A stretch of 64,000 bases of DNA from Squalus acanthias. Its lineage: Eukaryota. Under the pieces are notes generated by a model that saw only the letters and a program-made list of their open reading frames with translations, was not told the DNA's origin and made no database searches. Each line of letters begins with the position of its first letter. The first letter of the stretch is position 1. A program made the translations under genes and the position numbers. Location: NCBI GenBank assembly GCA_030390025.1, contig CM059431.1, positions 98,954,001 through 99,018,000 of the forward strand. The letters are read 5' to 3'. Below, one piece after another: positions 5,171-64,000 of the stretch.

Positions 5171-5342
5171 GCACGTTCAAATCAGCAATGAATCAGCTAT
5201 TGAATTCTACAGAAAATTTGGCTTTGGAATAATAGAAACTAAAAAGAACTACTACAAGAGGATAGAGCCAGCTGACGCACATGTTTTGCAGAAAACCCTC
5301 AAATACATTTCTCCCTGCCGGAGTGTGGAAAATCAGAAGTGA
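5171..5342 (+). CDS. NAA50: N-alpha-acetyltransferase 50, last coding exon
   Basis: ttccag|G CAC GTT... translates to (L)[59 protein letters not shown] at 5340-5342; GNAT C-terminal motif. Confidence 0.96.
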
Positions 5343-14806: not shown

Positions 14807-15446
14807 GTGTCACCTCAAGACATCTGCAGGGCAGCCCCTCATCGCAGAGCCCACTAGGCCAGTTTTTACCTCTCGCCTGAATGCTCAGACTGCAGCCATA
14901 TGCACCTTGGGCTACAATGTCACTTCCTCCTTTGACAGGACAGAGCCATCAATCGTGGTTTCAATAATACATGACATAGGAACGGGAAGAGGCCATCCAA
15001 TCCCTCGAGCATGTTCTGCCATTCAATTAGATCATGGCTGATCTGCACCTCAACTCCATTTACCCGCCTTTGCTCCATACCCCTTGATACTATTACCCAA
15101 CAAAAATCTATCTCTCTCAGTCTTGGAAGCTTGAATCATCCCCCAGCACCCACATCCTTTTGGGGGGTGAGTTCCAGATTTCTACTACCCTTAATGTGGA
15201 AAAGTTCTTCAAGATTTCACTCCTGAATGACCTAGCTCTAATTTTAAGATTTGCCAAAGACTATTTCATCAAGGTGAGGACCCTTTACCTGGATGGGGCA
15301 AACCGTGACATCACAGGGCAAGCTTCACCTTCACACTACGCATCACAGTGATATCAAACGTCACAATAGGTTTATAAACTGGGTCAATTTGAGGCAGGAG
15401 ACTGCACAGCCAGTTTAAGTGAAGGGAAAGGGAGCTACACAGGCTG

Positions 15447-15716
15447 ATTAAAGCAATGGGATCAGATCCCCGTGAATTAAAGCAATGGGATCAGATCCCC
15501 GTGAATTAAAGCAATGGGATCAGATCCCCGTGAATTAAAGCAATGGGATCAGATCCCCGTGAATTAAAGGAATGGGATCAGATCCCCGTGAATTAAAGGA
15601 ATGGGATCAGATCCCCGTGAATTAAAGGAATGGGATCAGATCCCCGTGAATTAAAGCAATGGGATCAGATCCCCGTGAATTAAAGCAATGGGATCAGATC
15701 CCAGGGAATTAAAGGA
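15447..15716. repeat. 29-bp minisatellite, 9 units plus a partial unit
   Basis: Unit ATTAAAG(C/G)AATGGGATCAGATCCCCGTGA, head to tail. Confidence 0.95.
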
Positions 15717-16339
15717 TGTTACAATTGGCACTTTAAAAAAAAGATTAGAACAGTTTTTGTTCAAGCTGTAATGACAACTCTGGACAACCCACCGAAAGGT
15801 TTCAAGTCATCTACCCCTAAAGGTAATTTAAGGATGTTATAAGATTCAAGAAATGCTTTTTTCTTCAACAGCTCAATAATATTGTGTACGACATTCATAA
15901 CCATGAACATCAAATTTTTCCGGCAGCTGGTATATTGTATATAGCCTGCAAATGAGTTGGAGAAGTTAGAAGAATATATATTTTAAAAAGGCAAAAACAG
16001 AAACACTCAGCAGGTCAGGTAGCATCTGTGGAGAGAAACAGAGTTAACGTCTCAGGTATGAACCTTAAATCAGAACTGGACATGTTGATGCATAGAACAG
16101 GGATGTTTAATCCATGGCTCTAGGCCCACTTCCATCTCTGGACCCTGGAAATCCAGCCCTCAAAGCCCGGAATAACTCAGTGTGATGGGGGGAGGGATCT
16201 ACAAGAAATGAAACCTGCCGAAATATAAACAAAACAGGAAAGGAGAGCATAGGAAAGAATAAAGTAAGGGAGGACATTGATGGCCACGGAATAAATAGAG
16301 TTATAGAATTTAAAAAGATGGTTAAAAATAAAGTGAGAG

Positions 16340-20244: not shown

Positions 20245-23200
20245 AACATAGGAACACAGGAACAGGAGGAGGCCATTCAGCCCCTCGAGCCTGTTCTGCC
20301 AGTCAATAAGATCAAGGCTGATCTGTGACCTAACTCCATATACCCGCCTTTGGCCCATATCCCTTAATACCTCTGGTTAACAAAAAGCTACCAATCTCTG
20401 ATTTAAAATTAACAATTGATCTAGCATCAATTGCCGTTTGCGGAAGAGAGTTCCAAACTTCTACCACCCTTTGTGTGTAGAAGTGTTTCCTAACTTCACT
20501 CTTGAAAGGTCTGGCTCTAATTTTTAGACTATGCCCCCTAGTCCTAGACTCCCCAACCAGCAGAAATAGTTTCTCTCTATCGACACTATCTGTTCCCCTT
20601 AATATCCTGACAACTTCGATCAGATCACCCCTTAACCGTCTAAATTCTGGGGAATACAACCCTAATTTGTGTAATCTCTCCTCACAACTTAACCCTTGAA
20701 GTCCAGGTATTATTCTGGTAAACCTACGCTACACTCCCTCCAAGGCCAATATATCCTTCCTAAGGTGTGGTGCCCAGAACTGCTCACAGTACTCCAGGGT
20801 TTTGTACAGCTGCAGCATTACGTCTGCCCCCTTGTACTCTAGTCCTCTAGATATAAAGGCCAGCATTCCATTAGCCTTTTTGATTACTTTCTGTGCTTGT
20901 TCATGACTTTTTAATGATCATCATAGAATTATAGTAATTTACAGCACAGAAGGACACCATTTGGCCCATCTTGTCCATGCCGGTCGACAAAGAGCTATCC
21001 AGCCTAATCCCACTTTCCAGCACTTGGTCCGTAGCCCTGTAGGTTATGACACTTCAAGTGCATATCCAAGTACTTTTTAAATGTGATGAGGGTTTCTGCC
21101 TCTTCCACCCTTTCAGGCAGTGAGTTCCAGACCTTCACCACCCTCTGGGTGAAAAAAATTCTCCTCAAATCCCCTCTAAACCTCCTACCAATTGCTTTAA
21201 ATCAATACCCCCTGGTTATTGACCCTTCTATTAATGGAAATAGATCCTTCCTATCCACTCTATCTAGGCCCCTCATAATTTTATACACCTCAATTAGGTC
21301 TCCCCTCAGCCTCCTCTGTTCCAAAGAAAACAACCCCAGCCTATCCAATCTTTCCTCATAGCTAAAATTCCCCAGCCCAGGTAACATCCTCGTAAATCTC
21401 CTCTGTACCCTCTCTATAGTGCAATTACATCCTTCCTGTAATGTGGTGACCAGAACTGCACGCAGTATTCTAGCTGCGGCCTAACTAGTGTTTTATACAG
21501 TTCAAGCATAATCTCCCTGCTCTTATATTCTATGCCTCGGCTAATAAAGGCAAGCATCCCGCATGACTTCTTAATCACCTTATCTACCTGTCCTGCTACC
21601 TTGAGGGATGTGTGGACATGCACTCCAAGGTCCCTCTGATCCTCTGCACTTCTCAATGTCCTACCATTTATTGTGTATTCCCTTGCCTTGTTAGCCCTCC
21701 CCAAATGCATTACCTCACACTTCTCTGGATTGAATTGCATTTGCCACTGTTCTGCCCACCTGACCAGTCCATTGATATCTTCCTGCAGTCTACAGTTTTC
21801 TTCATTATCAACCACACGGCCAATTTTTGTATCATCTGCAAACTTCGCTGAACTCCTTCCATGGCAAGAACATCCTTCCTTATCTGAGGAAGGATGTTCT
21901 TGCCATGGAAGGAGTTCAGCGAGGATTCACAAGGCTGATACCTGGGATGGCAGGAATGACATATGAGGAGAGATTGGGTCGATTGGGCTTATACTCGCTG
22001 GAGTATAGAAGAATGAGAGGGGATCTCATTGAAACATATAAAATTCTGACAGGTCTGGACAAACTAGATGCAGGAAGAATGTTCCCGATGGTCAGAGAGT
22101 CCAGAACCAGGGGTCATAATCTAAGGATAAGGGGTAAGCCATTTAGGACAGAAATGAGGAAGAATTTCTTCACCCAGAGAGTGGTGAACCTGTGGAATTC
22201 TCTACCACAGAAGGTAGTTGAGGCCAAGTCATTAAATATATTCAAGAATGAGTTAGATATATTTCTTAAAGCTAAAGGTATCAAGGGATATGGGGAGAAG
22301 GCAGGTACAGGGTACTGAGTTTGAATGATCAGCCATGATCTCATCGAATGGCGGAGCAGGCTCGAGGGGCCGAATGGCCTACTCCTGCTCCTATCTTCTA
22401 TGTTTCTATGTTTCTATGTTAATCATACTTCCTACATTCAAGTCCAAATCATTGATATATACCACAAAAAGCAAAGGACCCAGTACTGAGCCCTGCGGAA
22501 CCCCACTGGAAACAGCCTTCCAGTCACAAAAACACCCTTCGACCATTACCCTTTGTTTCCTGCCTCTGAGCCAATTTTGGATCCAACTTGCCACTTTGCC
22601 TTGGATCCCATGGGCTTTTACTTTCGTGACCAGTCTGCCATGCGGGACCTTATCAAAAAAGCCTTGCTAAAATCCATACAGACTACATCAAACGCACTAC
22701 CCTCATCGACCCTCCTTGTTACCTCCTCAAACAATTCAGTCAAGTTAGTCAGACACGACCTTCCCATAACAAATCCATGCTGACTGTTCCTGATTAAACC
22801 GTGTCTTTCTAAATGAAGATTTATCCTGTCCTTCAGAATTTTTTCCCACCACCGAGGTTAGGCTGACTGGCCTGTAATTACTTGGTCTATCCCTTTTTCC
22901 CTTTTTAAACAAGGGTACCACGTTTGCAGTCCTCCGGCACCACACCTGTAGCCAGAGGATTGGAAATGATGGTCAGAGCCTCTGCTATTTCCTCTCTTAC
23001 TTCTCTTAACAGCCTGGGATACATTTCATCCGGGTCTTGGGATTTATCCACTTTCAAAGATGCTAAACCCCTTAATACTTCCTCTTGATCTATGTACCTG
23101 AACCCCCAAGTCTCTGTGGATATCCACTGATTTTAGCTTTTTACCATTTAGAAAGTATCCTGTTCTATCCTTTTTAGGTCCAAAGTGGATGACCTATACT

Positions 23201-23750: not shown

Positions 23751-24766
23751 GGGGTGGAGGGAGTAGGAAGTGTCTAGTCATAATGCTCCAACCACCATGA
23801 GAGTGGAGCAGGTTTGATGGACCAGCTTTTCCTGTCCGTCATTTTCGTATGTTCGTAAAGGGGTGGTTTGAAGACTTCTCCATCCCTCCCTTTTCCAAAT
23901 AGAAACACTCTATTTGGTCATCCGATAATTGAAGCAAAAATATGGCCTGTGCCTACCTTTAATATGTCGCGCTGTCATTGGGGAAGTGTCATTCTCTGTC
24001 ACTTTTTCCATATGAATTTAGAAAGTTCCATGGCTATATCAGTAAAAAATGATCAGAAAGGAACCTCGGAGCTAAGTATTCACCTTAAAAGAAGTATTGG
24101 TTCATCTGGTCAGATCACACTCAGAGATGAAAGAGTTAGCAATGAGCCAAGGCTGACACTAAGTAACCTGCAACAGTCACGTTTTACACCATAAGAATCA
24201 TAGAATTATAGAATGGTTACAGCACAGAAGGAGGCCATTTGGCCCGTCGAGCCCGTGCCGGCTCTCTGCAAGAGCACCTCAGCTAGTCCCACTCCCTCGC
24301 CCTTTCCCCGTAGCCCTACAATTTTTTTTCATTCAGGTACTTATCCAATTCCCTTTACTTCTTCTTCTTCTTTCGTATGGTAGTAGCAAAGCAAATCAAT
24401 GTCAATATCTAAGTCAGATATCCAGGCCAAAGCTTCCGGTGTAAAATTCCCTTTTGAAAGCCGTGATTGAGTCTGCCTCCACCATCCTTTCAGGCAGTGC
24501 ATTCCAGATCCTAACCACTTGCTGCGTAAAAAAGTTTTTCCTCATGTCGCCTTTGGTTCTTTTGTCAATCACCTTAAATCTGTGTCCTCTGGTTCTCGAC
24601 CCTTCCGCCAATGGGAACAGTTTCTCTCTATCGATTCTGTCCAGACCCCTCATGATTTTGAACACCTCAATCAAATCTCTCAACCTTCTCTGCTCTAAGG
24701 AGAACAACCCCAGCTTCTCCAGTCTATCCATGTAACTGAAGTCCCTCATCCCTGGAACCATTCTTT

Positions 24767-25014
24767 TCACAGAATTCACAGAATCCCCACAATGCAGATA
24801 GAGGCCATTTCGGCCCATCGAGCCTGCACCGACACATAGCCCACCCTATCCCCGTAACCCCATGTATTTAGTCCCCCTAACACTAAGGGTCAATTTATCA
24901 TAGCCAAATCAACCTAACCCGCACATCTTTGGTCTGTGGGAGGAAACCGGAGCACCCGGAGGAAACCCACGCAGACACGGGGAGAATGTGCAAACTCCAC
25001 ACAGACAGTCACCG
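24767..25014 (-). mobile_element. HE1/V-SINE-like SINE, 5'-truncated
   Basis: Reverse complement nearly matches the full copy at 60152-60470. Confidence 0.85.
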
Positions 25015-25187
25015 ACACAATACTCCAGTTGAGGCCGAACCAGTGTTTTATAACGGTTCATCATAACGTTCTTGCTTTTGTACTCTATGCCTCTATTTAT
25101 GAAGCGGAGATGCCGGTGTTGGACTGGGGTGGACAAAATTGAGAGGTCGCACAACACCAGGTTATAGTCCAACAGTTTTATTTGAAA

Positions 25188-25225
25188 TCACAAGCTTTCG
25201 GAGCTATCGCTCCTTCCTCAGGTGA
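25188..25225 (-). ncRNA. Minimal type I hammerhead ribozyme motif (minus-strand copy)
   Basis: Exact reverse complement of 25974-26011. Confidence 0.78.
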
Positions 25226-25973
25226 AGTAAATTGGATACAGAATCGCCAGAGCATATATAGATGGAAAAAAAAGCATGTGTACTTTACAATTGCAGACCA
25301 ATAAATTAAATCATCCTGACTATCTGCCGAGGTGTGATAAAGTTAATTAAGTCAGCCAGGAAGGTACCACATCAAAAGACATAGCAAGATACAACTGAGA
25401 CAATGAGGTGTAGTCGCAGGGGTTCCAACGTGTCAAAAGCTGCCGTCTGTATGTAAAACGAAAAGCTTTAAAAAAAATTTACTTTTTTACTGGGAAAATT
25501 TTTACTTTTTTACTGGGAATCACATCTGTAAACAAGCTAACGACGACTCGAGTCCGGATCACGTCATGATAGCCAAGTTCCGCACTCATGAAGACGGTCT
25601 CAATCGGGATCTTGGGTTTATGTCACGATACATGACGTGATCCGGACTCGAGTCGTCGTTAGCTTGTTCACAGATGTGATTCCCAGTAAAAAAGTAAAAA
25701 TTTTCCCAGTAAAAAAGTAAATTTTTTTTAAAGCTTTTCGTTTTACATACAGACGGCAGCTTTTGACACGTTGGAACCCCTGCGACTACACCTCATTGTC
25801 TCAGTTGTATCTTGCTATGTCTTTTGATGTGGTACCTTCCTGGCTGACTTAATTAACTTTATCACACCTCGGCAGATAGTCAGGATGATTTAATTTATTG
25901 GTCTGCAATTGTAAAGTACACATGCTTTTTTTTCCATCTATATATGCTCTGGCGATTCTGTATCCAATTTACT

Positions 25974-26011
25974 TCACCTGAGGAAGGAGCGATAGCTCCG
26001 AAAGCTTGTGA
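25974..26011 (+). ncRNA. Minimal type I hammerhead ribozyme motif
   Basis: TCAC-CTGAGGA-A-GGAGC(GATA)GCTCC-GAAA-GC-TT-GTGA: conserved core, perfect stems I and II, palindromic AGCT stem III. Confidence 0.8.
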
Positions 26012-26443
26012 TTTCAAATAAAACTGTTGGACTATAACCTGGTGTTGTGCGACCTCTCAATTCTATTTATGAAGCCCAAGATCCTGTATGCTTTCTTAAC
26101 CGGTTTCTCAACCTGCCCTGCCACCTTCAACAATTTGTGCACATATACCCCTAGGTCTCTCTGTTCATGCACCCCTTTAAAATTGTACCCTTTAGTTTAT
26201 ATTGCCTCTCCTTGTTCTTCCTAACAAAATGTACCACCGCACTTTTCTGCGTTAAATTTAATCTGCCACGTGTCCGCCCATTCCGCCAGCCTGTCTATGT
26301 CCTCTTGAAGTCTATTCCTATCCTCCTCACTGTTCACTATACTTCCAAGTTTGGTGTCATCTGCAAATTTTGAAATGGTGCCCTGTACACCCACATAAGT
26401 GATGATATAAACATAAACTAGGATGAAACCACACCATAGCTGT

Positions 26444-27105
26444 GAGTGGGAGTGGAGCGGACAATTAAAGTGATGGGGGGTCATGCTTACGGACTGAAAG
26501 GAGGTGTTCCGCAAAGATTGGGTGACCGCTTTGCGGAACACCTCCGTTCAGTCCGTAAGCGTGACCCCGAGCTGCCGGTTGCCTGTCACTATAATTCTCC
26601 GCTCCACTCCCACTCTGACCTCTCTGTCCTCGGCCTCTTACATTGTTCCAATGAAGCTCAACGTAAGCTCGAAGAACAGCACCTCATCTTTCGATTAGGC
26701 ACTTTACAGCCTTCTGGACTCAACATCGAGTTCAACAATTTCAGACCATAGCCTCTGCCCCTATTTTTTCACATGGCAGCTGTCGATCATTCTGCCATTG
26801 CCATTTACAACTCATCTACAGTCATCTTTTGTTTCTTTACTTGTCCCATTACCATCTCCTTCTGCCTCGCACCATCCTCCCTTTTGTCATTTAATCTCTC
26901 CTACCTTCCACCCATCGCAGACCTTCACTTTTGTTCTTTCTTCCCTTCCCCCCTTTCCCTGCCCGTACACTTGCTTAAAAACCTGTTACATCTCCAACTT
27001 TTTCCTGTTCTGACGAAGGGTCATTGACCTGAAACGTTAACTCTGTTTCTCTCTCCCCGGATGCTGCCTGACCTGCTGAGTGTTTCCACCATTTACTGTT
27101 TTTAT
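26444..27105 (+). mobile_element. Penelope-like 3' fragment (GIY-YIG C-terminus + pLTR) with 5' fold-back
   Basis: RLGDRFAEHLRSV...VACHYNS...EQHLIFRLGTLQPSGLNIEF; same family as 57092-59180. Confidence 0.9.
27007..27041 (+). ncRNA. Minimal hammerhead ribozyme motif in PLE pLTR
   Basis: GTT-CTGACGA-A-GGGTC(ATT)GACCT-GAAA-CG-TT-AAC. Confidence 0.75.
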
Positions 27106-27269
27106 TATAGTAAATGAGGATCTCAGTATTATCCAAACAAAGGACAGTGCAACAGTGCACTGGGAGTGTCAGCCTGGATTTTGTGCTCAAGTCCTGGGGT
27201 GGGACTCGAACCCTCTAACCTCTGACTCGGAGAGGCGGACGCTGCCCACTGAGCTCAGCTGTCAATCAC

Positions 27270-27930
27270 CTGCCACACGGAGGCAGCGTGAACCCAAACC
27301 CCGCCCCTCACGCTGCCGTACGTCTGCTCATAACCCCGCCCCCCCACTCGTGGGGGGCACGCTGCCGGTCTTCCCCACAGCGCAGGCGCCGGAGCCCGCC
27401 GTCAATCAAATGACGTCACCGGCAACACGCCCCGCCCTCCACAGCGCAGGCGCCGGAGCCCTCCCCGTCAATCACGACGTCACAACCAGTACGCCACGCC
27501 CCCTCTCCCTGGCCCGAGGCCCCGCCCACTGGCCCGCTGACGTCACCGCCGGAGCCCGCCGAGCCCGCGGGTAGGCCGGATCACCATGACAACGGCGGGC
27601 GGCAGGCCGGGCCGGGCCGGGGCCTGAGAGAGAGAGAGACCCGGGGAGAGACTGAGAGAGGCTGCAGCCTCCCCACACACAGCCCGGGGAGAAAGCGAGA
27701 CCTGAGAGACTGAGGGAGAGACCCCTCCCCACACACAGCCCGGGGAGAGAGAGAGAGAGAGAGAGAGGGTGGGCCGGGCCCTGAGAGAGAGGCCCGGGGG
27801 ACAGTTCTAGAGAGAGAGTGGCTGTACCCTCCCCACACAGCCCGGGGGAGAGGGAGGCCGAGCTCCTCCAGAGAGAGAGCAGCAAAAGTTGCTGCAGTTT
27901 GTGAGCGGGCGGCCTGGCAGCAGCTCCTGA
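27270..27930 (+). promoter_or_regulatory. USF3: CpG-island promoter and probable first non-coding exon of USF3
   Basis: Only non-repeat CpG-dense block upstream of the ATG exon; GC boxes (CCCCGCCC), CRE TGACGTCA at 27411-27418 and 27538-27545, X-box-like GTCACCGGCAAC at 27415-27426; candidate donors at 27900|GTGAGC and 28361|GTAAGG. Confidence 0.8.
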
Positions 27931-49100: not shown

Positions 49101-49503
49101 TTCGGCCCATCGTGCCTGTGCTGGCTCTCTGAAAGAGCTCTCCAATTAGTCCCACTCCCCCCTGCTCTTTCCCCATAGCCTGGTAAAACTTTCCAGTTCA
49201 ATTATTTATCCAATTCCCTTTTGAAAGTAACAATTGCATCTGCTTCCACCGCCCCTTCAGGCAGTGAATTCCAGATCATAACTCGCTGCGCAATTTTCTT
49301 TTCCTCATGTCGCCTCTGGTTCTTTTGTTATTTACCTTGAATCTGCGTCCTCTGGTTAATACAAGTTAATGTATTTAATGTCTGAGCAAGAACTGCGGCC
49401 ATTATTATTTTACTCAAAGAAGTCCCATTTATTCGCTCATCAAAAGGCTACCCAGATTTGCACAGCTAGAGATCCCTAGTTTTGGAACCATTACTCAATG
49501 TTC

Positions 49504-52500
49504 CAGTAATGGCCGTGCTTGTTACACTGTTACAGTAATGGTCGTGTTTATTGTTACACTGTTACAGTATTGGTCGTGTTTATTGTCACACTATTGCAGT
49601 ATTGGTCATGTTTATTGTTACACTGTTACAGTAATGGTCGTGTTTATTGTTACACTTTACAGTAATGGTCGTGTTTATTGTTACACTGTTACAGTATTGG
49701 TCGTGTTTATTACACTGTTGCAGTATTGGTCGTGTTTATTGTTACACTGTTACAGTAATGGTCGTGTTTATTGTTACACTGTTACCGTAATGGTCTTGTT
49801 TATTGCACTGTTACAGTAATGTCGTTTATTGTCACTGTTACAGTAATGGTCGTGCATATTACACTGTTACAGTAATGTCGTGTTTATTGTTACACTGTTA
49901 CAGTAATGGTCGTGTTTATTGTTACACTGTTGCAGTAATGTCGTGTTTATTGTTACACTGTTACAGTAATGGTCGTGTTTATTGTTACACTGTTACAGTA
50001 ATGGTCGTGTTTATTACTGTTACAGTAATGGTCGTGTTTATTGTTACACTTACAGTAATGTCGTGTTTATTGTTACACTGTTACAGTAATGGTCATATTG
50101 TTACAGTAATGGTCGTGTATATTGTTACAGTAATGGTCGTGTTTATTGTTACACTGTTACAGTAGTGGTCATGTTTACTGTTACACTGTTACAGTAATGG
50201 CCGTGTTTATTGTTACACTGTTGCAGTAATGGTCGTGTTTTTTTACACTGTTGCAGTATTGGCCGTGTTTATTGTTACACTGTTGCAGTAATGGTCGTGT
50301 TTATTGTTACACTGTTGCAGTAATGGTCGTGTTTATTGTTACAGTGTTACAGTAATGGTCGTGTTTATTGTTACTGTCACAGTAATGGTCGTGTTTATTG
50401 TTACACTTACAGTAATGTCGTGTTTATTGTTACACTGTTACAGTAATGGCCGTGTTTATTACACTGTTACAGTAATGTCGTTTATTGTTTCACTGTTACA
50501 GTAATGTCGTTTATTGTTTCACTGTTACAGTAATGTCGTTTATTGTTACACTGCTACGGTAATGGTCGTGTTTATTACACTGTTACAGTAATGGTCGTGT
50601 TTATTGTTACACTGTTACAGTAATGGTCGTGTTTATTACTGTTGCAGTAATAGTCGTGTTTATTGTTACACTTACAGTAATGTCGTGTTTATTGTTACAC
50701 TGTTGCAGTAATGGTCGTGTTTATTGTTACACTGTTACAGTAATGTCGTGTTTATTGTTACACTGTTACAGTAATGGCCGTGTTTATTACACTGTTACAG
50801 TAATGTCGTGTTTATTGTTACACTGTTACAGTAATGTCGTTTATTGTTACACTGCTACAGTAATGGTCGTGTTTATTACACTGTTACAGTAATGGTCGTG
50901 TTTATTGTTACACTGTTACAGTAATGGTCGTGTTTATTACTGTTGCAGTAATGGTCGTGTTTATTGTTACACTTACAGTAATGTCGTGTTTATTGTTACA
51001 CTGTTACAGTAATGGTCATGTATATTGTTACAGTAATGGTCGTGTATATTGTTACAGTAATGGTCGTGTTTATTGTTGCACTGCTACAGTAATGGTCGTA
51101 TTTATTGTTACACTGTTGCAGTATTGGCCATGTTTATTGTTACACTGTTACAGTAATGGTCCTGTTTATTGTTACACTGTTACAGTAATGGTCGTGTATA
51201 TTATTACACTGTTACAGTAATGGTCGTGTTTATTGTTACACTGTTACAGTAATGGTCTTATTTATTGTTACACTGTTGCAGTATTGGCCGTGTTTATTGT
51301 TACACTGTTGCAGTAATGGTCGTGTTTATTGTTACACTGTTACAGTAATGGTCGTGTTTATTGTTACACTGTTGCAGTATTGGCCGTGTTTATTGTTACA
51401 CTGTTGCAGTATTGGCCGTGTTTATTGTTATACTGTTGCAGTAATGGTCGTGTATATTATTACACTGTTACAGTAATGGTCGTGTATATTATTACACTGT
51501 TACAGTAATGGTCATGTTTATTGTTACGCTGTTACAGTAATGGTCGTGTTTATTGTTACGCTGTTACAGTAATGGTCGTGTTTATTGTTACACTGTTACA
51601 GTAATGGTCGTGTTTATTGTTACACTGTTACAGTATTGGCCGTGTTTATTGTTATACTGTTGCAGTATTGGCCGTGTTTATTGTTACACTGTTACAGTAA
51701 TGGTCGTGTTTATTGTTACACTGTTACAGTATTGGCCGTGTTTATTGTTACACTGTTGCAGTATTGGCCGTGTTTATTGTTACACTGTTACAGTAATGGT
51801 CGTGTTTATTATACTGTTGCAGTAATGGTCGTGTTTATTGTTACACTGTTACAGTAATGGTCGTGTTTATTGTTATACTGTTGCAGTAATGGTCGTGTTT
51901 TTTTACACTGTTGCAGTATTGGCCGTGCTTATTGTTACACTGTTGCAGTAATGGTCGTGTTTATTGTTACACTGTTACAGTAATGGTCGTGTTTATTGTT
52001 ACACTGTTACAGTAATGGTCGTGTTTATTGTTACTGTTACAGTAATGGCGTGTTTATTGTTACACTGTTACAGTAATGTCGTGTTTATTGTTACTGTTAC
52101 AGTAATGGTCGTGTTTATTGTTACGCTGTTACAGTAATGGTCGTGTTTATTGTTACTGTTACAGTAATGGCGTGTTTATTGTTACACTGTTACAGTAATG
52201 TCGTGTTTATTGTTACTGTTACAGTAATGGTCGCGTTTATTGTTACGCTGTTACAGTAATGGTCGTGTTTATTGATACAGTAATGGTCGTGTTTATTGTT
52301 ACACTGTTACAGTAATGGTCGTGTTTATTGTTACAGTATTGGTCGTGTTTATTGTTACAGTAATGGTCGTGTTTATTGTTGCACTGCTACAGTAATGGTG
52401 GTATTGTTACAGTAATGATCCTGTTTATTGTTACACTGTTACAGTAATGATCGTGTTTATTGTTACACTGTTACAGTAATGGTCGTGTTTATTGTTACAC

Positions 52501-55500
52501 TGTTACAGTAATGGTCGTGTTTATTGTACACTTGCAGTAATGGTCGTGTTTATTGTTACACTGTTACAGTATTGGTCGTGTATATTGTTACAGTATTGGT
52601 CGTGTATATTGTTACAGTATTGGTCGTGTTTATTGTTGCACTGCTACAGTAATGGTATTGTTACAGTAATGATCCTGTTTATTGTTACACTGTTACAGTA
52701 ATGACCGTGTTTATTGTTACACTGTTACAGTAATGGTTGTGTTTATTGTTACACTGTTACAGTAATGGTCGTGTTTATTGTTACACTGTTACAGTATTGG
52801 TCGTGTATATTGTTACAGTAATGGTCGTGTTTATTGTTACAATAATGGTCGTGTTTATTGTTACACTGCTACAGTAATGGTCGTGTATATTATTACACTG
52901 TTACAGTAATGGTCGTATTTATTGTTACACTGTTGCAGTAATGGTTGTGTTTATTGTTACACTGTTACAGTATTGGTCGTGTATATTGTTACAGTAATGG
53001 TTGTGTTTATTGTTACAGTAATGGTCGTATTTATTGTTTTTATTGTTACACTGTTACAGTAATGGTCGTGTTTATTGTTACACTGTTGCAGTAATGGTCG
53101 TGTTTATTGTTACACTGTTGCAGTAATGGTCGTGTTTATTGTTACACTGTTGCAGTAATGGTCATGTTTATTGTTATATTGTTGCAGTAATGGTCGTATT
53201 TATTGTTACATTGTTACAGTAATGGTCCTGTTTATTACACTAATACAGTAATGGTCGTGTTTATTACACAGTTACTGTAATGGTCGTGTTTATTACACTG
53301 TTACTGTAATGGTCGTGTTTATTGTTGCACTGTTACAGTAATGGTCGTGTTTATTGTTACATTGTTACAGTAATGGTCGTGTTTATTGTTGCACTGTTGC
53401 AGTAATGGTCGTGTTTATTGTTACATTGTTACAGTATTGGTCGTGTTTATTGTTACACTGTTACAGTAATGTTCCTGTTTATTGCTACACTGATGGTCGT
53501 GTTTATTGTTACGCTGTTACAGTAATGGTCGTGTTTATTGTTACAGTAATGGTCATGTTTATTACACTGTTACAGTAATGATCGTGTTTTTTTACACTGT
53601 TACAGTAATGGTCGTGTTTAATGTTACACTGTTACAGTAATGGTCATGTTTATTGTTACGCTGTTACAGAAATGGTCGTGTTTATTACAGCAATGGTCGT
53701 GTTTATTGTTACACTGTTACAGTAATGGTCGTGTTTATTGTTACGCTGTTACAGTAATGGTCGTGTTTATTGTTACAGTAATGGTCGTGTTTATTGTTAC
53801 AGTAATGGTCGTGTTTATTGTTACACTGTTGCAGTAATGGTCGTGTTTATTGTTAGTTACAGTAATGGTCGTGTTTATTGTTACACTGTTACAGTATTGG
53901 TCGTGTATATTGTTACAGTAATGGTCGTGTTTATTGTTACAGTAATGGTCATATTTATTGTTTTTATTGTTACACTGTTACAGTAATGGTCGTGTTTTAT
54001 TTTAAACTGTTGCAGTAATTGTCGTGTTTATTGTTACATTGTTACAGTAATAGTCCTGTTTATTACACTGTTACTGTAATGGTCGTGTTTATTACACTGT
54101 TACTGTAATGGTCGTGTTTATTGTTGCACTGTTACAGTAATGGTCGTGTTTATTGTTACATTGTTACAGTATTGGTCGTGTTTATTGTTACACTGTTACA
54201 GTAATGGTCCTGTTTATTGCTACACTGATGGTCGTGTTTATTGTTACGCTGTCACAGTAATGGTCGTGTTTATTGTTACAGTAATGGTCGTGTTTATTAC
54301 ACTGTTACAGTAATGGTCGTGTTTTTTTACACTGTTGCAGTAATGGTCGTGTTTATTGTTACACCGTTACAGTAATGGTCGTGTTTATTGTTACACCGTT
54401 ACAGTAATGGTCGTGTTTATTGTTACACCGTTACAGTAATGGTCGTGTTTATTGTTACAGTAATGGTCGTGTTTATTGTTACACTGTTGCAGTAATGGTC
54501 GTGTTTATTGTTACTGTAATGGTCGTGTTTATTGTTGCACTGTTACAATAATGGTCGTGTTTATTGTTGCACTGTTGCAGTAATGGTCGTGTTTATTGTT
54601 ACTGTAATGGTCGTGTTTATTGTTGCACTGTTACAATAATGGTCGTGTTTATTGTTGCACTGTTGCAGTAATGGTCGTGTTTATTGTTACATTGTTACAG
54701 TATTGGTCGTGTTTATTGTTACACTGTTACAGTAATGGTCCTGTTTATTGCTACACTGATGGTCGTGTTTATTGTTACACTGTTGCAGTAATGGTCGTGT
54801 TTACTGTTAGTTACAGTAATGGTCGTGTTTATTGTTACACTGTTACAGTATTGGTCGTGTTTATTGTTACTGTTACAGTAATGGTCGTGTTACACTGTTG
54901 CAGTATTGGTCGTGTTTATTGTTACACTGTTACAGTAATGGTTGTGTTTATTGTTACACTGTTACAGTATTGGTCATGTTTATTGTTGCGCTGTTACAGA
55001 AATGGTCGTGTTTATTGTTGCGCTGTTACAGAAATGGTCGTGTTTATTGTTGCGCTGTTACAGAAATGGTCGTGTTTATTGCGCTGTTACAGAAATGGTC
55101 ATGTTTATTGCGCTGTTACAGAAATGGTCGTATTTATTGTTGCGCTGTTACAGAAATGGTCGTGTTTATTGTTGCGCTGTTACAGAAATGGTCGTGTTTA
55201 TTGTTGCGCTGTTACAGAAATGGTCGTGTTTATTGTTGCGCTGTTACAGAAATGGTCGTGTTTATTGTTACGCTGTTGCAGTAATGGTCGTGTTTATTGT
55301 TACACTGTTGCAGTAATGGTCGTGTTTACCGTTAGTTACAGTAATGGTCGTGTTTATTGTTACACTGTTACAGTATTGGTCGTGTTTATTGTTACTGTTA
55401 CAGTAATGGTCGTGTTACACTGTTGCAGTATTGGTCGTGTTTATTGTTACACTGTTACAGTAATGGTTGTGTTTATTGTTACACTGTTACAGTATTGGTC

Positions 55501-56030
55501 ATGTTTATTGTTGCGCTGTTACAGAAATGGTCGTGTTTATTGTTGCGCTGTTACAGAAATGGTCGTGTTTATTGCGCTGTTACAGAAATGGTCATGTTTA
55601 TTGCGCTGTTACAGAAATGGTCGTGTTTATTGTTTCGCTGTTACAGAAATGGTCGTGTTTATTGTTGCGCTGTTACAGAAATGGTCGTGTTTATTGTTGC
55701 GCTGTTACAGAAATGGTCGTGTTTATTGTTGCGCTGTTACAGTAATGGTCGTGTTTATTGTTGCGCTGTTACAGAAATGGTTGTGTTTATTAGTGTTACT
55801 GTAATGGTCGTGTTTTTTGTTAGTTACAGTAATGTTCATGTTTATTGTCAGTTGCAGTAATGGTTGTGTTTATTACATTGTTGCAGTAATCGTCGTGTTT
55901 GTTACACTGTTACAGTAATGGTCGTATTTATTGTTACACTGTTACAATAATGGTCGTGTTTATTGTTACACTGTTACAGTAATGGTCGTGTTTGTTACGC
56001 TGTTTCAGTATTGTGTTATTACGGTAATGG
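49504..56030. repeat. ~6.5-kb minisatellite, ~32-bp unit
   Basis: Consensus GTTACAGTAATGGTCGTGTTTATTGTTACACT with 23-, 29- and 30-bp deletion variants. Confidence 0.98.
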
Positions 56031-56674
56031 GCGCATTAGATTTTTTGTCTAATTACCGGATGACTTGATTTGTTTTAATTACATTGTTTTAAAAATTGAA
56101 TGATCCAGAAATATATGCTTGCTCCTCTTCCACGAAAGGTAGAGCAGAGTCTGTGTCTTCACTGAGAGTACCAATGTTCCAACATAACCTTCCCCTGCAA
56201 ATTTCGTGTGGAGAGGGAAGCCTAGAGGTGCAGCGATGGGCTGGAATAAAGCAGTGTGCACCTAAAAGAGGCAGACACCCAACCAAGAAACTCCCCTCAA
56301 TGGCCAGGGATTACCCGAGTTTCAGTAAACACTGCTGGGTATAAACTGAATTTGAAAACTGAAAATTGCTACGTCTATGAGTTGTAACTGGTCATTGGGT
56401 ATTTGATGGAATAATTATATATCAGGGTGGGGCTTTATTACATGTTTAACAACAGTGTAAATGTTTTGAATATCTAGTTAATGCACAACATCTAGGAATT
56501 CCATTGTGCTGTGTCGTGGTGTAATAGGAATACGTTTCATACTCGCAACACTTAGTTCCTAACTGTCAGCTGTGTGTGGGCACATTGAGACCTTGAAGGA
56601 AAGGGAAGAAAAATAGAAAGTAGCTGTACAAAAATGTAACTCGCTAATTTTTTAAAAAACAATTCTGTTCCTAG

Positions 56675-56757
56675 TGGAAAGACATCGAAAGAAGAAGATT
56701 AACTCTGGAATAAATAAAATTGGAGAACTTATTCCATGCTCTCCCGCGCTGAAGCAG
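56675..56757 (+). CDS. USF3: USF3 coding exon (basic region/helix 1/loop, 83 nt)
   Basis: cctag|TG GAA AGA...AAG CAG|gtaaaa = (V)ERHRKKKINSGINKIGELIPCSPALKQ. Confidence 0.96.
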
Positions 56758-57091
56758 GTAAAACTGTTTCCAATATTTTACCTCTTTGGATTTGAAAATC
56801 GTTAGTATAGACTAAATAGGTAATAAAAACACATGCATCTACTGATCGACTGAGGGCACTTAACTGGGACACTACCCAAAACATTAACCTGCCTCTTATT
56901 TTTTCAAATGCTGATAGACCTGCTCTCTCTCTTTTTCATTTTTATCTACGAGTAATACTTGATGGAGCCTTGGGAAATAAAACATGGAGATTCAACCCCA
57001 GTCAGTCTTTTAAAAAGCCCTTAAACACTGAACCCAGGATGTGGAGCACCTGCAGTGAATGGGACACCCTGGCCTGCCATCAGTGCAACAT

Positions 57092-59180
57092 CACCTCCAT
57101 TCCCCACCAGGATGGCCTGAGGGCGCTCCGCTTCTTCCTTGAACAGAGGCCCAACCAGTCCCCATCCACCACCACCCTCCTCCGCCTGGCTGAACTTGTT
57201 CTCACATTGAACAACTTCTCCTTTGACTCTACCCATTTCCTCCAAATTAAAGGTGTTGCTATGGGTACCCGCATGGGTCCTAGCTATGCCTGCCTTTTCG
57301 TGGGATATGTGGAACACTCTTTGTTCCAGTCCTACTCGGGTCCCCCTCCCTCACCTCTTTTTCCGGTACATTGATGACTGTATCGGTGCCGTCTCCTGCT
57401 CTCGCCCTGAACTAGAACATTTCATTCACTATGCTTCCAATTTCCACCCTTCCCTCACCTTCACATGGTCCATCTCCGACTCTTCCCTTCCCTTCCTCGA
57501 CTTCTCCATCTCCATCTCTGGGGATAGGTTATTGACTAACATTCACTACAAGCCCACCGACTCCCACAGCTACCTGGACTACACTTCCTCCCACCCCGCC
57601 TCCTGTAAGGACTCTATTCCATTCTCCCAGTTTCTCCGTCTCCGCCGCATCTGCTCTGATGATGCCACCTTCCATACCAGTGCTTCCGACATGTCTTCCT
57701 TTTTCCTCAACCGAGGATTCCCCTCTACCGTGGTCGACACGGCCCTCGACCGTGTCCGTTCTATCTCCCGCACATCTGCCCTCACCCCTGCCCCTCCCTC
57801 CCGGAACCACGATAGGGTTCCCCTTGTCCTCACCTTTCACCCCACCAGCCTCCACATTCAACGGATCATCCTCCGCCATTTCCGCCACCTCCAGCGTGAT
57901 CCCACCACCAAACACATCTTCCCCTCACCTCCCCTTTCAGCATTCCGTAGGGACCGCTCTCTCCGCGACACCCTAGTCCACTCCTCTACCACCCCCAGCA
58001 CCCCTTCCCCTTCGCCCGGCACCTTCCCGTGCACGCGCAGGAGATGCAACACATGCCCTTATACCTCCCCTCTTCCCACTGTCCAGGGCCCCTAACACCC
58101 CTTCCAGGTGAAACAGCGATTTATTTGTACTTCCTGCAATTTAGTATACTGTATTCGCTGCTCACGATGTGGACTCCTCTACATTGGGGAGACCAAACGC
58201 AGATTGGGTGACCGCTTTGCGGAACACCTCCGTTCAGTCCGTAAGGGGGACCCCGAGCTCCCGGTGGCCTGTCACTTTAATTCACCGCTTCACTCCCACT
58301 CTGACCTCACCGTCCTCGGCCTATTACACTGTTCCACGGAAGCTCAGCGTAAGCTCGAGGAACAGCACCTCATCTTTCGTTTAGGCACGCTACAGCCCTC
58401 TGGACTCAATATCGAGTTCAACAATTTTAGATCATAACCTCAGCTCCAATCACATTTATATTTTATTTTATCCACCTTTTTATTTGTCCCCCCCCACCTT
58501 TTTTTTTCCTCCTAGAAGCTGGCAGCTGTCCTTCATTCTGCCAGTGGATTTCACACTTCATTCAGCCTTAATCTGTCACATTAACACCACCTCTAGCCTT
58601 GCATATCTCTTAATGTCTCTTAATGTCTCTTCATTTCCCCCTTTGTTCCTTTATCCCCTCCCCCTTTTCCCAGCTTTACCCTGGCCTTAAATCTATTTGA
58701 TTTCCGGCTCTTCCCAGTTCTGATGAAAGGTCTGCGTGGGTTTTCTCCGGGTGCTCCGGTTTCCTCCCACTGTCCAAAAATGTGCGGGTTAGGTTGATTT
58801 GGCTATGATAAATTGACCCTTAGTGTTAGGGGGGGGATTAAATATGTGGGGTTATGGGGATAGGATGGGATATGTTAGGGGGAATTAAATACGTGGGGTT
58901 ACGGGGGTCGGGTGGGATATGTGTACTGTGGGGATTAAAGCAGGGACAGGGTACTGGATTTGAATGATCAGCCATGATCGTATTGAATGGTGGTGCAGGC
59001 TCGACGGGCCGAATGGCCTACTCCTGCTCCTAGATTCTATGTTTCTATGTTTATGTTTCTATGTCATCGACCTGAAACGTTAACTCTCTTTCTCTCTCCA
59101 CGGATGCTGCCTGGCCTGCTGAGTTTTTCCAGCGTTTTCTGTTGTTATTTCGGATTTCCAGCATCCGCAGTATTTTGCTA
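57092..59180 (+). mobile_element. Penelope-like element (RT + Cys-rich linker + GIY-YIG), 5'-truncated, disrupted
   Basis: QIKGVAMGTRMGPSYA, RYIDD, LPFLD, CTRRRCNTC, LVYCIRC..CGLLYIGETKR; frameshift near 57345; in-frame TAA at 58093-58095. Confidence 0.95.
58733..59062 (+). mobile_element. Chimeric insert: V-SINE body + CR1 3' UTR
   Basis: 5' part matches 60265-60405; 3' part matches CR1 tails such as 22300-22417; GTC on both flanks. Confidence 0.8.
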
Positions 59181-61795: not shown

Positions 61796-61910
61796 GCACA
61801 TGACATCAGCTTATTTTAACTGTAGGCCGTAGCCCAGTTTTCCCCCTCACTGCTTTTAAAAGCGCTAATGGACTGGGTTTTGTTAACCTACATTTTCCTG
61901 TTGTTTTCAG

Positions 61911-62007
61911 AGTAAAAACATGATACTAGACCAAGCATACAAGTACATTTCAGAGCTGAAGAGGCAGAATGATGAAATTCTGTTGAATGGAGGAACCAAA
62001 GAACAAG
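61911..62007 (+). CDS. USF3: USF3 coding exon (helix 2/zipper start, 97 nt)
   Basis: ttttcag|AGT AAA AAC ATG...GAA CAA G|gtaagc = SKNMILDQAYKYISELKRQNDEILLNGGTKEQ. Confidence 0.96.
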
Positions 62008-64000
62008 GTAAGCATGTGATGCAATTATTGTGTAATCACTTCCATTGCTGTAGCCAAGTCTCACACCATCCCGACTTGGACTTATATCGTCGCTGGGTCA
62101 AAATCCTGGAACTCCCTCCCTAACAGCACTGTGGGAGTACCTTCAACACACGGACTGCAGCGGTTCAAGAAGGCGGTTCACCACCACCTTCTCAAGGGCA
62201 ATTAGGGATTCCCAGCGACGCCCACATCCCGGGAATTTTTTTTTAAACTTAGGTCCAGCATAAGCATAACTTTCAGTTTCCATCAGTAACTTGTTTTCTC
62301 TTTCCCCTGTCCTACTTTGTTCATGCTGCTTTGTATGCAACAGAATGGTTAAGGTTTTGACAGAGAATATCATCATAGTTAAGTATGAACCGAACCATTC
62401 CTGGGGCCTGTGCCTTACTGGTGTCGACGGAGCCCCACAGTCCCCTGTGCTCAACACAGGGCGAGCAGTACGTGAGAGCAAACACGATCAGCAGAGACAA
62501 GGCATGGGAGCAAACACGATCAGCAGAGACAAGGCATGGGAGTAAACACGTTCATCACAAAACAACTGAGATCATGTTTAATTGAGACTGTCCAGAATTA
62601 TTATTTTTTTTAAAGAGTGAAAGACTGTTGAAATTCTGTGTATTTGAAGGATACACAGTGGGGGGAGTTCAAAACGAGGGGCCATAAATATAAGACAGTC
62701 ACTAATAAATCCAATAGGGAATTCAGGAGAAACTTCTTTACCCAAAGAGTGGTGAGAATGTGCAACTCGCTACAACATGGAGTGGGTGAGGCGAATAGCA
62801 TAGATGCCTTTAAGGGGAAGCTACATTAGTACGAGGGAGAAAAGAATAGAAGGATATGTTGATAGGGTGAGATGAACTAGGGTTGCAAGAGGCTCGTGTG
62901 GAGCATAAACACCGGTATGGACCAGTTGGGCCAAATGGCCTGTTTCTGTGCTGTATATTCTATGTAATTCTGTGGACAGAGCAGACGGCAGTAGGAGATG
63001 GGCCTCTGACTTGATGGGAGGGGTAACGAGAGAGTGCGCGCTCTCGCACGCTACTGCCCAACTGTACAACAAAAAGAAAGAAATCAGCAAAGGCTGAAAG
63101 TCCATAACAACCTGGTCATCCACTTCCGTGCATCTCCTCATTTCCCCCAGATTATCAAGATCCTATCAAAACTCTTGAGGAACAGGTTGCAGGTATTTTG
63201 AATGCTTAGCCCTACTGGAGGAACATTTCCATTAGCTGCCAGATCAGATAGGATGGACCTCCCAGTGTGTCGCTATGAGAGGAGTGATGAGAATTGCCTT
63301 CCACTGCCAGTGACTTGGATCGAGACTGGTCTGCTGGCATTCAGTCCAAAGGTTTTCTTGCACAACCCTGCATGATTCTGACCCTGCCACTGGTGTGAAG
63401 ATACTCTGTGTAGCTCAGCAGCTTGCTTTGCCTGTTCCAAAGAAGAAATAAAGAGTGTAGCGGTGAATAGTGTGTCCTCTGTGTGGTTCTTTTTATTTCA
63501 AGGAATGCTGGAAGAGGAGGATGGTTTGAGTGACTAGATCTTTTGAACAGCTTACATCAGCATTAAGTTGAAAGGCAGTGGGTGGCCTTTATTTTGTTTC
63601 ACCATTTGATTTGAAACACAGCATAAACATACGGTTACTTTAAACCTATGAAAGCAATAGGAATGTCATGGGGCGTTGGCTGAAGAACTTCTTTCATGAC
63701 AGGATGAAGAACTGAAGGCACCTTCATGTAGGAAGGGGGAAGACGCCTTTGCAGTGACAGGCATCCATGTCATTTTTGCTTTGTTGGATGGGCAACCTAC
63801 CCATGGTATATTGAGAATATTAAAAATGATTAAGTATTGGGAAGGTTAACTCTTAACACCTTTCTGCAAGAGCATCTTGTGCTGGTCAGTTATGGAAGCT
63901 CTTGTCATTGTCCAAGGCATAAAGAAAGAAAGACTGGCATTTCTACAGCGCCTTTCACGACCACCGGACGTCCCAAAGCGCTTTACAGCCAATTAAGTAC

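What the first reader, a model, noticed from the sequence alone, without database searches (positions are those of the whole stretch)
25092..26075. 926-bp near-perfect palindrome from a young Penelope-like insertion, about 1.2 kb upstream of the USF3 promoter
Seen: arms 25137-25568 and 25631-26062 (432 bp each, one mismatch found by eye) surround a 62-bp spacer encoding the element's ORF C-terminus, and the whole insert is bounded by a 14-bp TSD inside a CR1. Known: PLEs often carry an inverted 5' pLTR, and long short-spacer inverted repeats are unstable and form dsRNA. Inference: this is a very recent and possibly polymorphic insertion. It could extrude hairpins, or yield an ADAR/Dicer substrate from NAA50 read-through or antisense promoter transcripts.
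Basis: partly seen in the sequence, partly recalled or inferred. Interest (0 to 1): 0.7.

Follow-up and report, generated by a model that had tools for sequence, protein, structure and literature searches.

The report
Mirror-image Penelope retroelement insertion, shark
The near-perfect 926-letter mirror repeat is real, but it is the stump of a known kind of jumping gene (a Penelope-like element) laid down in its usual back-to-back form, and nothing here shows that it is very recent, variable between individuals or transcribed.

Summary
Observation confirmed: arms 25137-25568 and 25631-26062 with one mismatch, a 62-nt spacer and a 14-nt target duplication. Removing the insert leaves an uninterrupted CR1 reading frame. 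The spacer encodes the last residues of a shark RT+GIY-YIG retroelement (21 of 22 identical to P0006, which has the Neptune/Nematis-type linker). The left copy carries a 31-32-nt tail that the right lacks. Each arm holds a minimal hammerhead motif and a TATA+Inr-like pair pointing outward. Inverted pLTR, tail and TSD together are the published Penelope-like architecture, and the scan has noted such insertions before, in this genome and in other shark genomes. 'Very recent, possibly polymorphic' is not established: at a shark mutation rate one mismatch fits about 0.04-9 million generations. Spanning reads, other individuals and RNA were not examined. A 62-nt spacer makes cruciform extrusion unlikely. 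NAA50 ends 19.7 kb away, behind 19 AATAAA sites. If the locus were transcribed it would form a 431-bp duplex that buries its own ribozyme. Ordinary; low interest.

The parts
25092..25105 (.). Left target-site duplication, 14 nt
   Evidence: only 2 copies in window
25106..25137 (-). 'Tail': 31-32-nt extension present only on the inverted copy
   Evidence: described for PLEs in PMC8557442, PMC3846280, PMC11167929
25106..25568 (-). Inverted, 5'-truncated copy of the element's 3' end (pLTR plus tail), 463 nt
25188..25225 (-). Minimal hammerhead motif, mirror copy
   Evidence: descriptor scan
25224..25260 (-). TATA-like plus Inr-like motif pair pointing away from USF3 (motif only)
25530..25530 (.). 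Single arm mismatch (partner 25669): A-C on the + strand RNA, G-U on the - strand RNA
25569..25630 (+). 62-nt spacer = 5' part of the sense copy
25569..25640 (+). Last 23 codons and stop of a Penelope-like RT+GIY-YIG ORF
   Evidence: 20-21 of 22-23 residues identical to each of 8 of 8 hits
25631..26061 (+). Sense arm (3' UTR/pLTR), ends at the tail-less site
25939..25975 (+). TATA-like plus Inr-like motif pair pointing toward the CpG-rich segment (motif only)
25974..26011 (+). Minimal type-I hammerhead motif: helix I 4 bp, CUGAGGA, extra A, helix II 5 bp, GAAA, palindromic AGCU; predicted cut after 26007
   Evidence: descriptor features from PMC4209133; 0 hits in 100 shuffles of the window
26062..26075 (.). 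Right target-site duplication; base 26062 shared with the arm
25020..25105 (-). Host CR1-like ORF2 remnant, left part
26076..26396 (-). Host CR1-like ORF2 remnant, right part (weak RVT_1 match, E 0.002)
27200..27700 (.). CpG-rich segment with two TGACGTCA sites (27411, 27538); candidate USF3 promoter, not shown
5171..5342 (+). NAA50 last coding exon (context)
56671..56754 (+). bHLH-coding exon, first USF3-like exon located (context)
61890..62018 (+). Stretch holding a USF3 exon (context)

Best explanation
A single, genuine, 5'-truncated insertion of an endonuclease-bearing Penelope-like retroelement (Neptune/Nematis-type by its relatives) into an old CR1 remnant, now most likely an inert stump. 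Shown: structure TSD - tail+inverted pLTR (463 nt) - sense ORF end+pLTR (493 nt) - TSD. Inferred: the GIY-YIG nuclease nicked both strands 14 nt apart, and both 3' ends primed reverse transcription. The right end started at the inner start site and the left end at the outer one, 31-32 nt further out, which leaves the tail on one side only. The centre closed either when the longer cDNA snapped back on itself about 62 nt behind its end and its copy annealed to the tail-primed cDNA (slightly preferred, because it explains the short spacer), or when two truncated cDNAs were end-joined. The palindrome is a by-product of integration. It cannot encode a mobile element. If read through, the RNA forms a 431-bp duplex that buries the hammerhead.
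For: Geometry and TSD. Intact CR1 frame across the empty site. Spacer peptide = C-terminus of a 643-aa shark ORF with RVT_1, DKG, YIDD, CX4CxxC and GIY-YIG-type motifs. Minimal hammerhead in both arms, 0 hits in 100 shuffles. Literature: inverted 5'-truncated copy plus 30-40-bp tail at one end is typical of PLEs (PMC8557442, passages); a rotifer copy has inverted pLTR, 9-bp TSD and 31-bp tail (PMC3846280, passages); purified anole Poseidon protein cuts and extends both strands, and the tail is the stretch between two RT start sites (PMC11167929, parts 1-2 of 4); hammerhead pairs 100-700 bp apart on opposite strands were noted in Schistosoma (PMC4209133). The tail is absent from the right copy, so the left end cannot have been copied from the right arm alone (sequence). 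Holding the hammerhead fold costs 65.7 kcal/mol in the full palindrome against 0.9 in the sense copy alone.
Against: No nucleotide copy of the family was obtained (0 matches; 0 confirmed loci), so the tail end, the inner start site and any microhomology at the centre are not checked against a consensus. No reads span the locus. The in vitro work is on a Poseidon element, not this clade. Neither inferred nick sits at the ATT motif that protein prefers (sequence). The tail stem-loop is not significant (z -0.97 and -1.18). Rfam found no hammerhead family at E up to 10. 'Inert' rests on lack of evidence, not on RNA data.
Confidence: 0.82

Rival explanations
1. Assembly or library fold-back artefact.
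For: Long near-perfect inverted repeats trouble assemblies (PMC8557442). No spanning reads were seen.
Against: The mirror stops at the element ends instead of running into the flank. A 14-nt TSD lies on both sides. The flanks rejoin into one CR1 frame. The left copy has 31-32 nt that the right lacks, and there is one mismatch.
Confidence: 0.03
2. The hairpin was made before integration by self-priming of an antisense element RNA or fold-back of a free cDNA, then trimmed by the endonuclease to leave the tail, as proposed for rotifer Penelopes.
For: Proposed in PMC3846280; tail ascribed to EN-mediated resolution in PMC8557442. The strand that carries the spacer in antisense is the one such a fold-back predicts. 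The tail-less end falls at ATT, the anole nuclease's preferred motif.
Against: It needs an extra trimming step. The later in vitro work maps the tail to two RT start sites.
Confidence: 0.1
3. A simple insertion or partial tandem was turned into a palindrome later by host repair.
For: Fold-back duplications at breaks are known (PMC7999016).
Against: The duplication would have to stop exactly at the element end, add the tail and keep both TSDs.
Confidence: 0.04
4. The locus is an active RNA source: a read-through or antisense transcript gives a Dicer/ADAR substrate, or the outward pLTR promoter acts on USF3. This is compatible with the best explanation for origin and competes only on function.
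For: Duplex of -829.8 kcal/mol. In transgenic D. melanogaster, siRNAs matched the inverted regions of rearranged Penelope copies (PMC3681739, passages). CpG-rich segment 1.2 kb away. TATA+Inr-like pair in each arm: 3 matches in the window, 2 of them these mirror copies, against 0.88 expected.
Against: NAA50 stop is 19.7 kb away with 19 AATAAA between. AATAAA on the - strand at 27101 and 25894 precede completion of the duplex. Outward promoters start near the arm ends and would not make the hairpin. The TATA/Inr pattern was chosen after seeing the sequence.
Confidence: 0.12

Closest known systems
Complex insertions of EN+ Penelope-like elements: inverted pLTR plus tail plus TSD (Pen2a_Av of Adineta vaga, PMC3846280; scheme in PMC8557442)
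   Same: Head-to-head inverted 5' copy, 31-nt tail on one copy, short TSD, TATA-like and Inr-like motifs about 20 nt apart in the pLTR.
   Different: Here nearly the whole ORF is lost, so the two pLTRs are 62 nt apart; arms 431 nt against about 200; TSD 14 against 8-10 nt.
Poseidon of Anolis carolinensis (PAc), PMC11167929
   Same: Hammerhead near the pLTR end; two element ends about 31 nt apart, as expected from two RT start sites.
   Different: Relatives of this element carry the CX2-5CxxC linker that Penelope/Poseidon lack. No ORF start follows the hammerhead in the sense frames of this copy except a 17-codon one. The target is not cut at ATT.
Minimal hammerheads of metazoan PLEs (PMC4209133)
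   Same: Short helix I, extra base before helix II, G10.1-C11.1, palindromic 15.2-16.2, no helix III; pairs on opposite strands.
   Different: U at position 17; cleavage untested; sequestered in the hairpin if read through.
Shark RT+GIY-YIG ORF P0006 (named 'uncharacterized protein', Heptranchias perlo) and P0008 (Mustelus asterias)
   Same: C-terminal 22 residues 21 and 20 identical.
   Different: Other species; DNA of their 3' UTRs was not available, so family identity of the arms is inferred from the ORF end only.
LINE-1 twin-priming 5' inversions (recalled, no call)
   Same: Both nicked strands prime; inversion junction; TSD.
   Different: Twin priming inverts without duplicating. Here 431 nt are present twice and the ends differ by a tail.

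Membership tests
EN+ Penelope-like element | ORF with RT followed by C-terminal GIY-YIG endonuclease | tested here: met
   Only the last 23 codons are in the insert. They match the C-terminus of P0006 (RVT_1 E 5e-9) and P0005 (GIY-YIG E 2e-5).
EN+ Penelope-like element | Inverted 5'-truncated copy adjacent to the 5' end | tested here: met
EN+ Penelope-like element | 30-40-bp tail on one end only | tested here: met
   31-32 nt on the inverted copy; not checked against other copies
EN+ Penelope-like element | Target-site duplication | tested here: met
   14 nt
EN+ Penelope-like element | Hammerhead motif in the pLTR | tested here: met
   Own descriptor after PMC4209133: both arms, 0 hits in 100 shuffles. 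Rfam hammerhead models gave no hit.
Neptune/Nematis clades | CX2-5CxxC linker between RT and EN | tested here: met
   Met in relatives P0006 and P0008 (criterion from PMC8557442); that part is absent from the insert
Neptune/Nematis clades | RT phylogeny with reference elements | not tested
   No reference set at hand; Neptune against Nematis not resolved
Penelope/Poseidon clade | Absence of the CX2-5CxxC linker | tested here: not met
   Linker present in the closest full-length relative
Active hammerhead ribozyme | Self-cleavage (as dimer or protein-assisted) | not testable with these tools
   AAGCUU can self-pair, but the two motifs are on opposite strands and are buried in the hairpin
Polymorphic recent insertion | Empty-site allele in other individuals | not tested
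   No reads or contigs were laid on the locus; word shares cannot decide
Hairpin endo-siRNA or ADAR locus | Read-through transcript, 21-23-nt RNAs or A-to-I edits | not tested
   No RNA data examined

The most novel reading that the evidence does not exclude
The insertion is still segregating and is a two-faced regulatory module. Its outward TATA+Inr pLTR promoter fires toward the USF3 CpG island 1.2 kb away, while rare read-through gives a 431-bp duplex that buries its own hammerhead and yields small RNAs against the whole Penelope family. That would be a vertebrate case of a retroelement whose integration mechanism builds its own silencing trigger, testable by allele in heterozygous sharks.
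Probability: 0.07. Interest if true: 0.6.

Novelty: new member of a known kind. Interest (0 to 1): 0.2.

Why it matters
As it stands, little: it is a clean, well-preserved example of a published architecture. It is useful as a junction-resolved specimen for the open question of how Penelope-like elements build inverted ends, since the tail on the inverted copy rules out simple copying from the other arm. It is also a caution that near-identical arms in slowly mutating sharks do not date an insertion as recent. It would matter more if RNA data showed small RNAs or an effect on USF3.

Tried and rejected
No whole genome is held, so copy number, family divergence and the frequency of such palindromes were not measured. 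Public runs: 20 of 21 rows hold part of 24000-27300; organism A 0.62-0.63 of words, organisms B-D about 0.4; no RNA holder listed. These shares cannot separate an empty site from species divergence and were not used. No read or contig evidence was obtained for the locus. Family DNA: 0 matches in viral, metagenome and prokaryote contigs; 599 and 1 pattern stretches, none confirmed. Rfam at E up to 10: 9 hits, all below gathering score and none a hammerhead; the best are the neighbouring hairpin at 26476-26568. Pfam found nothing for the 36-aa spacer frame. Protein atlas for the USF3 exon: best score 0.86, lead only. The sigma-70 scan does not apply to a vertebrate. Monomer fold of the hammerhead region with flanks and of the tail is not significant; the 46-nt core alone gives z -2.24. 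A 5-pair primer-template match with 2 wobbles at the right junction is one post hoc observation and was not counted. CpG o/e 0.85 in the arm against 0.50 in the window is only a weak hint of youth. Literature searches listed no paper on shark Penelope palindromes; I read none of the three listings, and the library lacks most subscription papers. Supplements were not opened; those of PMC11167929 (Fig. S2) bear on the tail and start-site claim.

Full report
Observation. The longest inverted repeat of the window has arms 25137-25568 and 25631-26062, 432 nt each, 62 nt apart. One of 432 pairs is mismatched (25530/25669, a transition), and a 14-nt direct repeat lies at 25092-25105 and 26062-26075. 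That 14-mer occurs nowhere else in the window, and a match of this length across the boundaries has a chance of about 2e-5. Base 26062 belongs to both arm and TSD, so the insert is 956 nt: a 463-nt inverted copy (25106-25568) and a 493-nt sense copy (25569-26061). As RNA it folds at -829.8 kcal/mol, z -74 against 20 shuffles. The window has no N.

Host site. With the insert and one TSD left out, the minus strand reads one unbroken CR1-like ORF2 frame across the site. Two other CR1-like copies of the window align through the junction at 66-69% identity. The family name CR1 is recalled; Pfam gives only a weak RVT_1 match, E 0.002. The mirror stops at the element ends, carries a tail on one side and is bounded by a TSD. 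A fold-back artefact would not produce this, so I take the structure as biological, although no reads were examined.

Identity. The spacer and the first bases of the right arm encode 23 residues and a stop at 25638-25640. All 8 of 8 candidates returned by a search of longer proteins match it at 20-21 of 22-23 residues. The named ones are from sharks. P0006 (643 aa) has RVT_1 (E 5e-9), and P0005 has GIY-YIG (E 2e-5). P0006 also shows DKG, YIDD and a CX4CxxC linker. PMC8557442 (passages) gives that linker as the mark of Neptune and Nematis and says it is absent from Penelope/Poseidon. So this is the 3' end of an EN+ Penelope-like element, probably Neptune-type; no tree was built.

(a) The inverted copy runs 31-32 nt further toward the element's 3' end than the sense copy. 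(b) Each arm holds a minimal hammerhead: helix I 4 bp, CUGAGGA, an extra A, helix II 5 bp closed by G-C, GAAA, palindromic AGCU, predicted cut after 26007. My descriptor, built after PMC4209133 (parts 1-2 of 4 read), found 3 sites in the window (these two and one in the neighbouring element) and 0 in 100 shuffles. Rfam's models did not find it. (c) A TATA-like and an Inr-like motif 22 nt apart precede each hammerhead and point outward: 3 matches in the window against 0.88 expected. The consensus patterns are recalled and were chosen after seeing the sequence.

Comparison with the literature. An inverted 5'-truncated copy and a 30-40-bp tail at one end are described as typical of PLE insertions (PMC8557442, passages). 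A rotifer copy has an inverted pLTR, a 9-bp TSD, a 31-bp tail and a TATA-Inr pair (PMC3846280, passages). Purified anole Poseidon protein cuts and extends both target strands, starts reverse transcription at two internal sites, and the tail is the stretch between them (PMC11167929, parts 1-2 of 4). Hammerhead pairs 100-700 bp apart on opposite strands were noted in Schistosoma; here they are about 750 nt apart. Earlier notes of this scan describe such fold-back insertions in this genome and in two other shark genomes. They are unchecked AI notes and I count them only as agreement.

Mechanism (inferred). Staggered nicks 14 nt apart gave two primers. The right end began at the inner start site and the left end at the outer one. 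The left end cannot be a copy of the right arm alone, because the tail is not there. The centre closed by snap-back of the longer cDNA or by joining of two truncated cDNAs. The short spacer favours snap-back slightly, and one locus cannot decide. All 8 relatives have Leu before the first spacer codon, so a 2-nt TG microhomology at the centre is possible, but their codons are unknown. Against a tidy fit: neither nick is at ATT, and the tail stem-loop is not significant.

Age. With 7e-10 per site per generation (epaulette shark, PMC10587355, passages; a borrowed rate), one mismatch in 431 bp gives 1.7 million generations, 95% interval 0.04-9.2 million. If the mismatch dates from integration, the upper bound is 5.0 million; across the rate's own interval the range is 0.02-46 million. 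Four times that paper's Ne of about 710,000 is 2.8 million generations (my arithmetic), inside the interval. Gene conversion between arms (general knowledge) could hide more age. The copy is young relative to its decayed neighbours, but 'very recent' and 'polymorphic' are open. Word shares in public runs cannot settle it.

Consequences. DNA: a review reports fork stalling at inverted Alus with a 12-bp but not a 52-bp spacer in eukaryotic cells (PMC7999016, passages). Recombination falls 300-fold from 12 to 100 bp in yeast, but spaced repeats become potent in long single-stranded DNA (PMC10164571, passages). So instability is likely modest and limited to stressed forks. RNA: NAA50's last coding exon ends at 5342, 19.7 kb away, with 19 AATAAA on the + strand between. 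A CpG-rich segment with two TGACGTCA sites starts about 1.2 kb from the insert. USF3 exons were located at 56.7 and 61.9 kb; the start of the gene was not mapped. An antisense transcript from that segment meets AATAAA at 27101 and 25894 before the duplex is complete. If read through, the duplex is real, and holding the hammerhead fold would cost 65.7 kcal/mol against 0.9 in the sense copy alone. Precedent exists: siRNAs matched the inverted regions of Penelope copies in transgenic flies (PMC3681739, passages). No RNA data were examined here. The bioRxiv paper on retrozymes (10.64898/2026.07.22.740005, passages) concerns tandem hammerhead repeats and does not bear on this locus.

Verdict. A real and well-preserved, but ordinary, Penelope-like insertion. 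New member of a known kind; interest 0.2.

Noticed in passing
window 26444-27110: A second, older Penelope-like fragment of a different family (GIY-YIG end 90% identical to the one at 58096-58434) with a short 5' fold-back (26444-26615, left part with an internal gap) and its own minimal hammerhead at 27010; no TSD found. It lies between the palindrome and the CpG-rich segment.
   Followed up: partly
window 57000-59170: A longer Penelope-like copy (RT thumb region 30% identical to P0006, CX4CxxC linker, GIY-YIG E 4e-5) in a USF3 intron; its hammerhead appears split at helix II by later insertions at about 58735-59065; no TSD found.
   Followed up: partly
window 21845-21922: A 78-bp palindrome (37-bp arms, 4-nt centre) at an inversion junction between CR1-like pieces; short enough at the centre to be a better cruciform candidate than the finding.
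   Followed up: partly
window 25479-25520 and mirror 25679-25720: A roughly 21-nt tandem duplication inside both arms, so present in the template before integration.
   Followed up: no
window 27390-27550: The CpG-rich segment is built of imperfect repeats carrying TGACGTCA or near-matches.
   Followed up: no
window 49400-55900 and 15389-15774: A 6.5-kb minisatellite of 29-32-nt units and a 29-nt tandem array with a partly palindromic unit.
   Followed up: no
proteins P0003, P0007, P0008: Database gene models (FAM204A, XRCC5 isoforms, a pyrin-domain protein) end in this Penelope ORF tail: either exonised elements or annotation artefacts.
   Followed up: no
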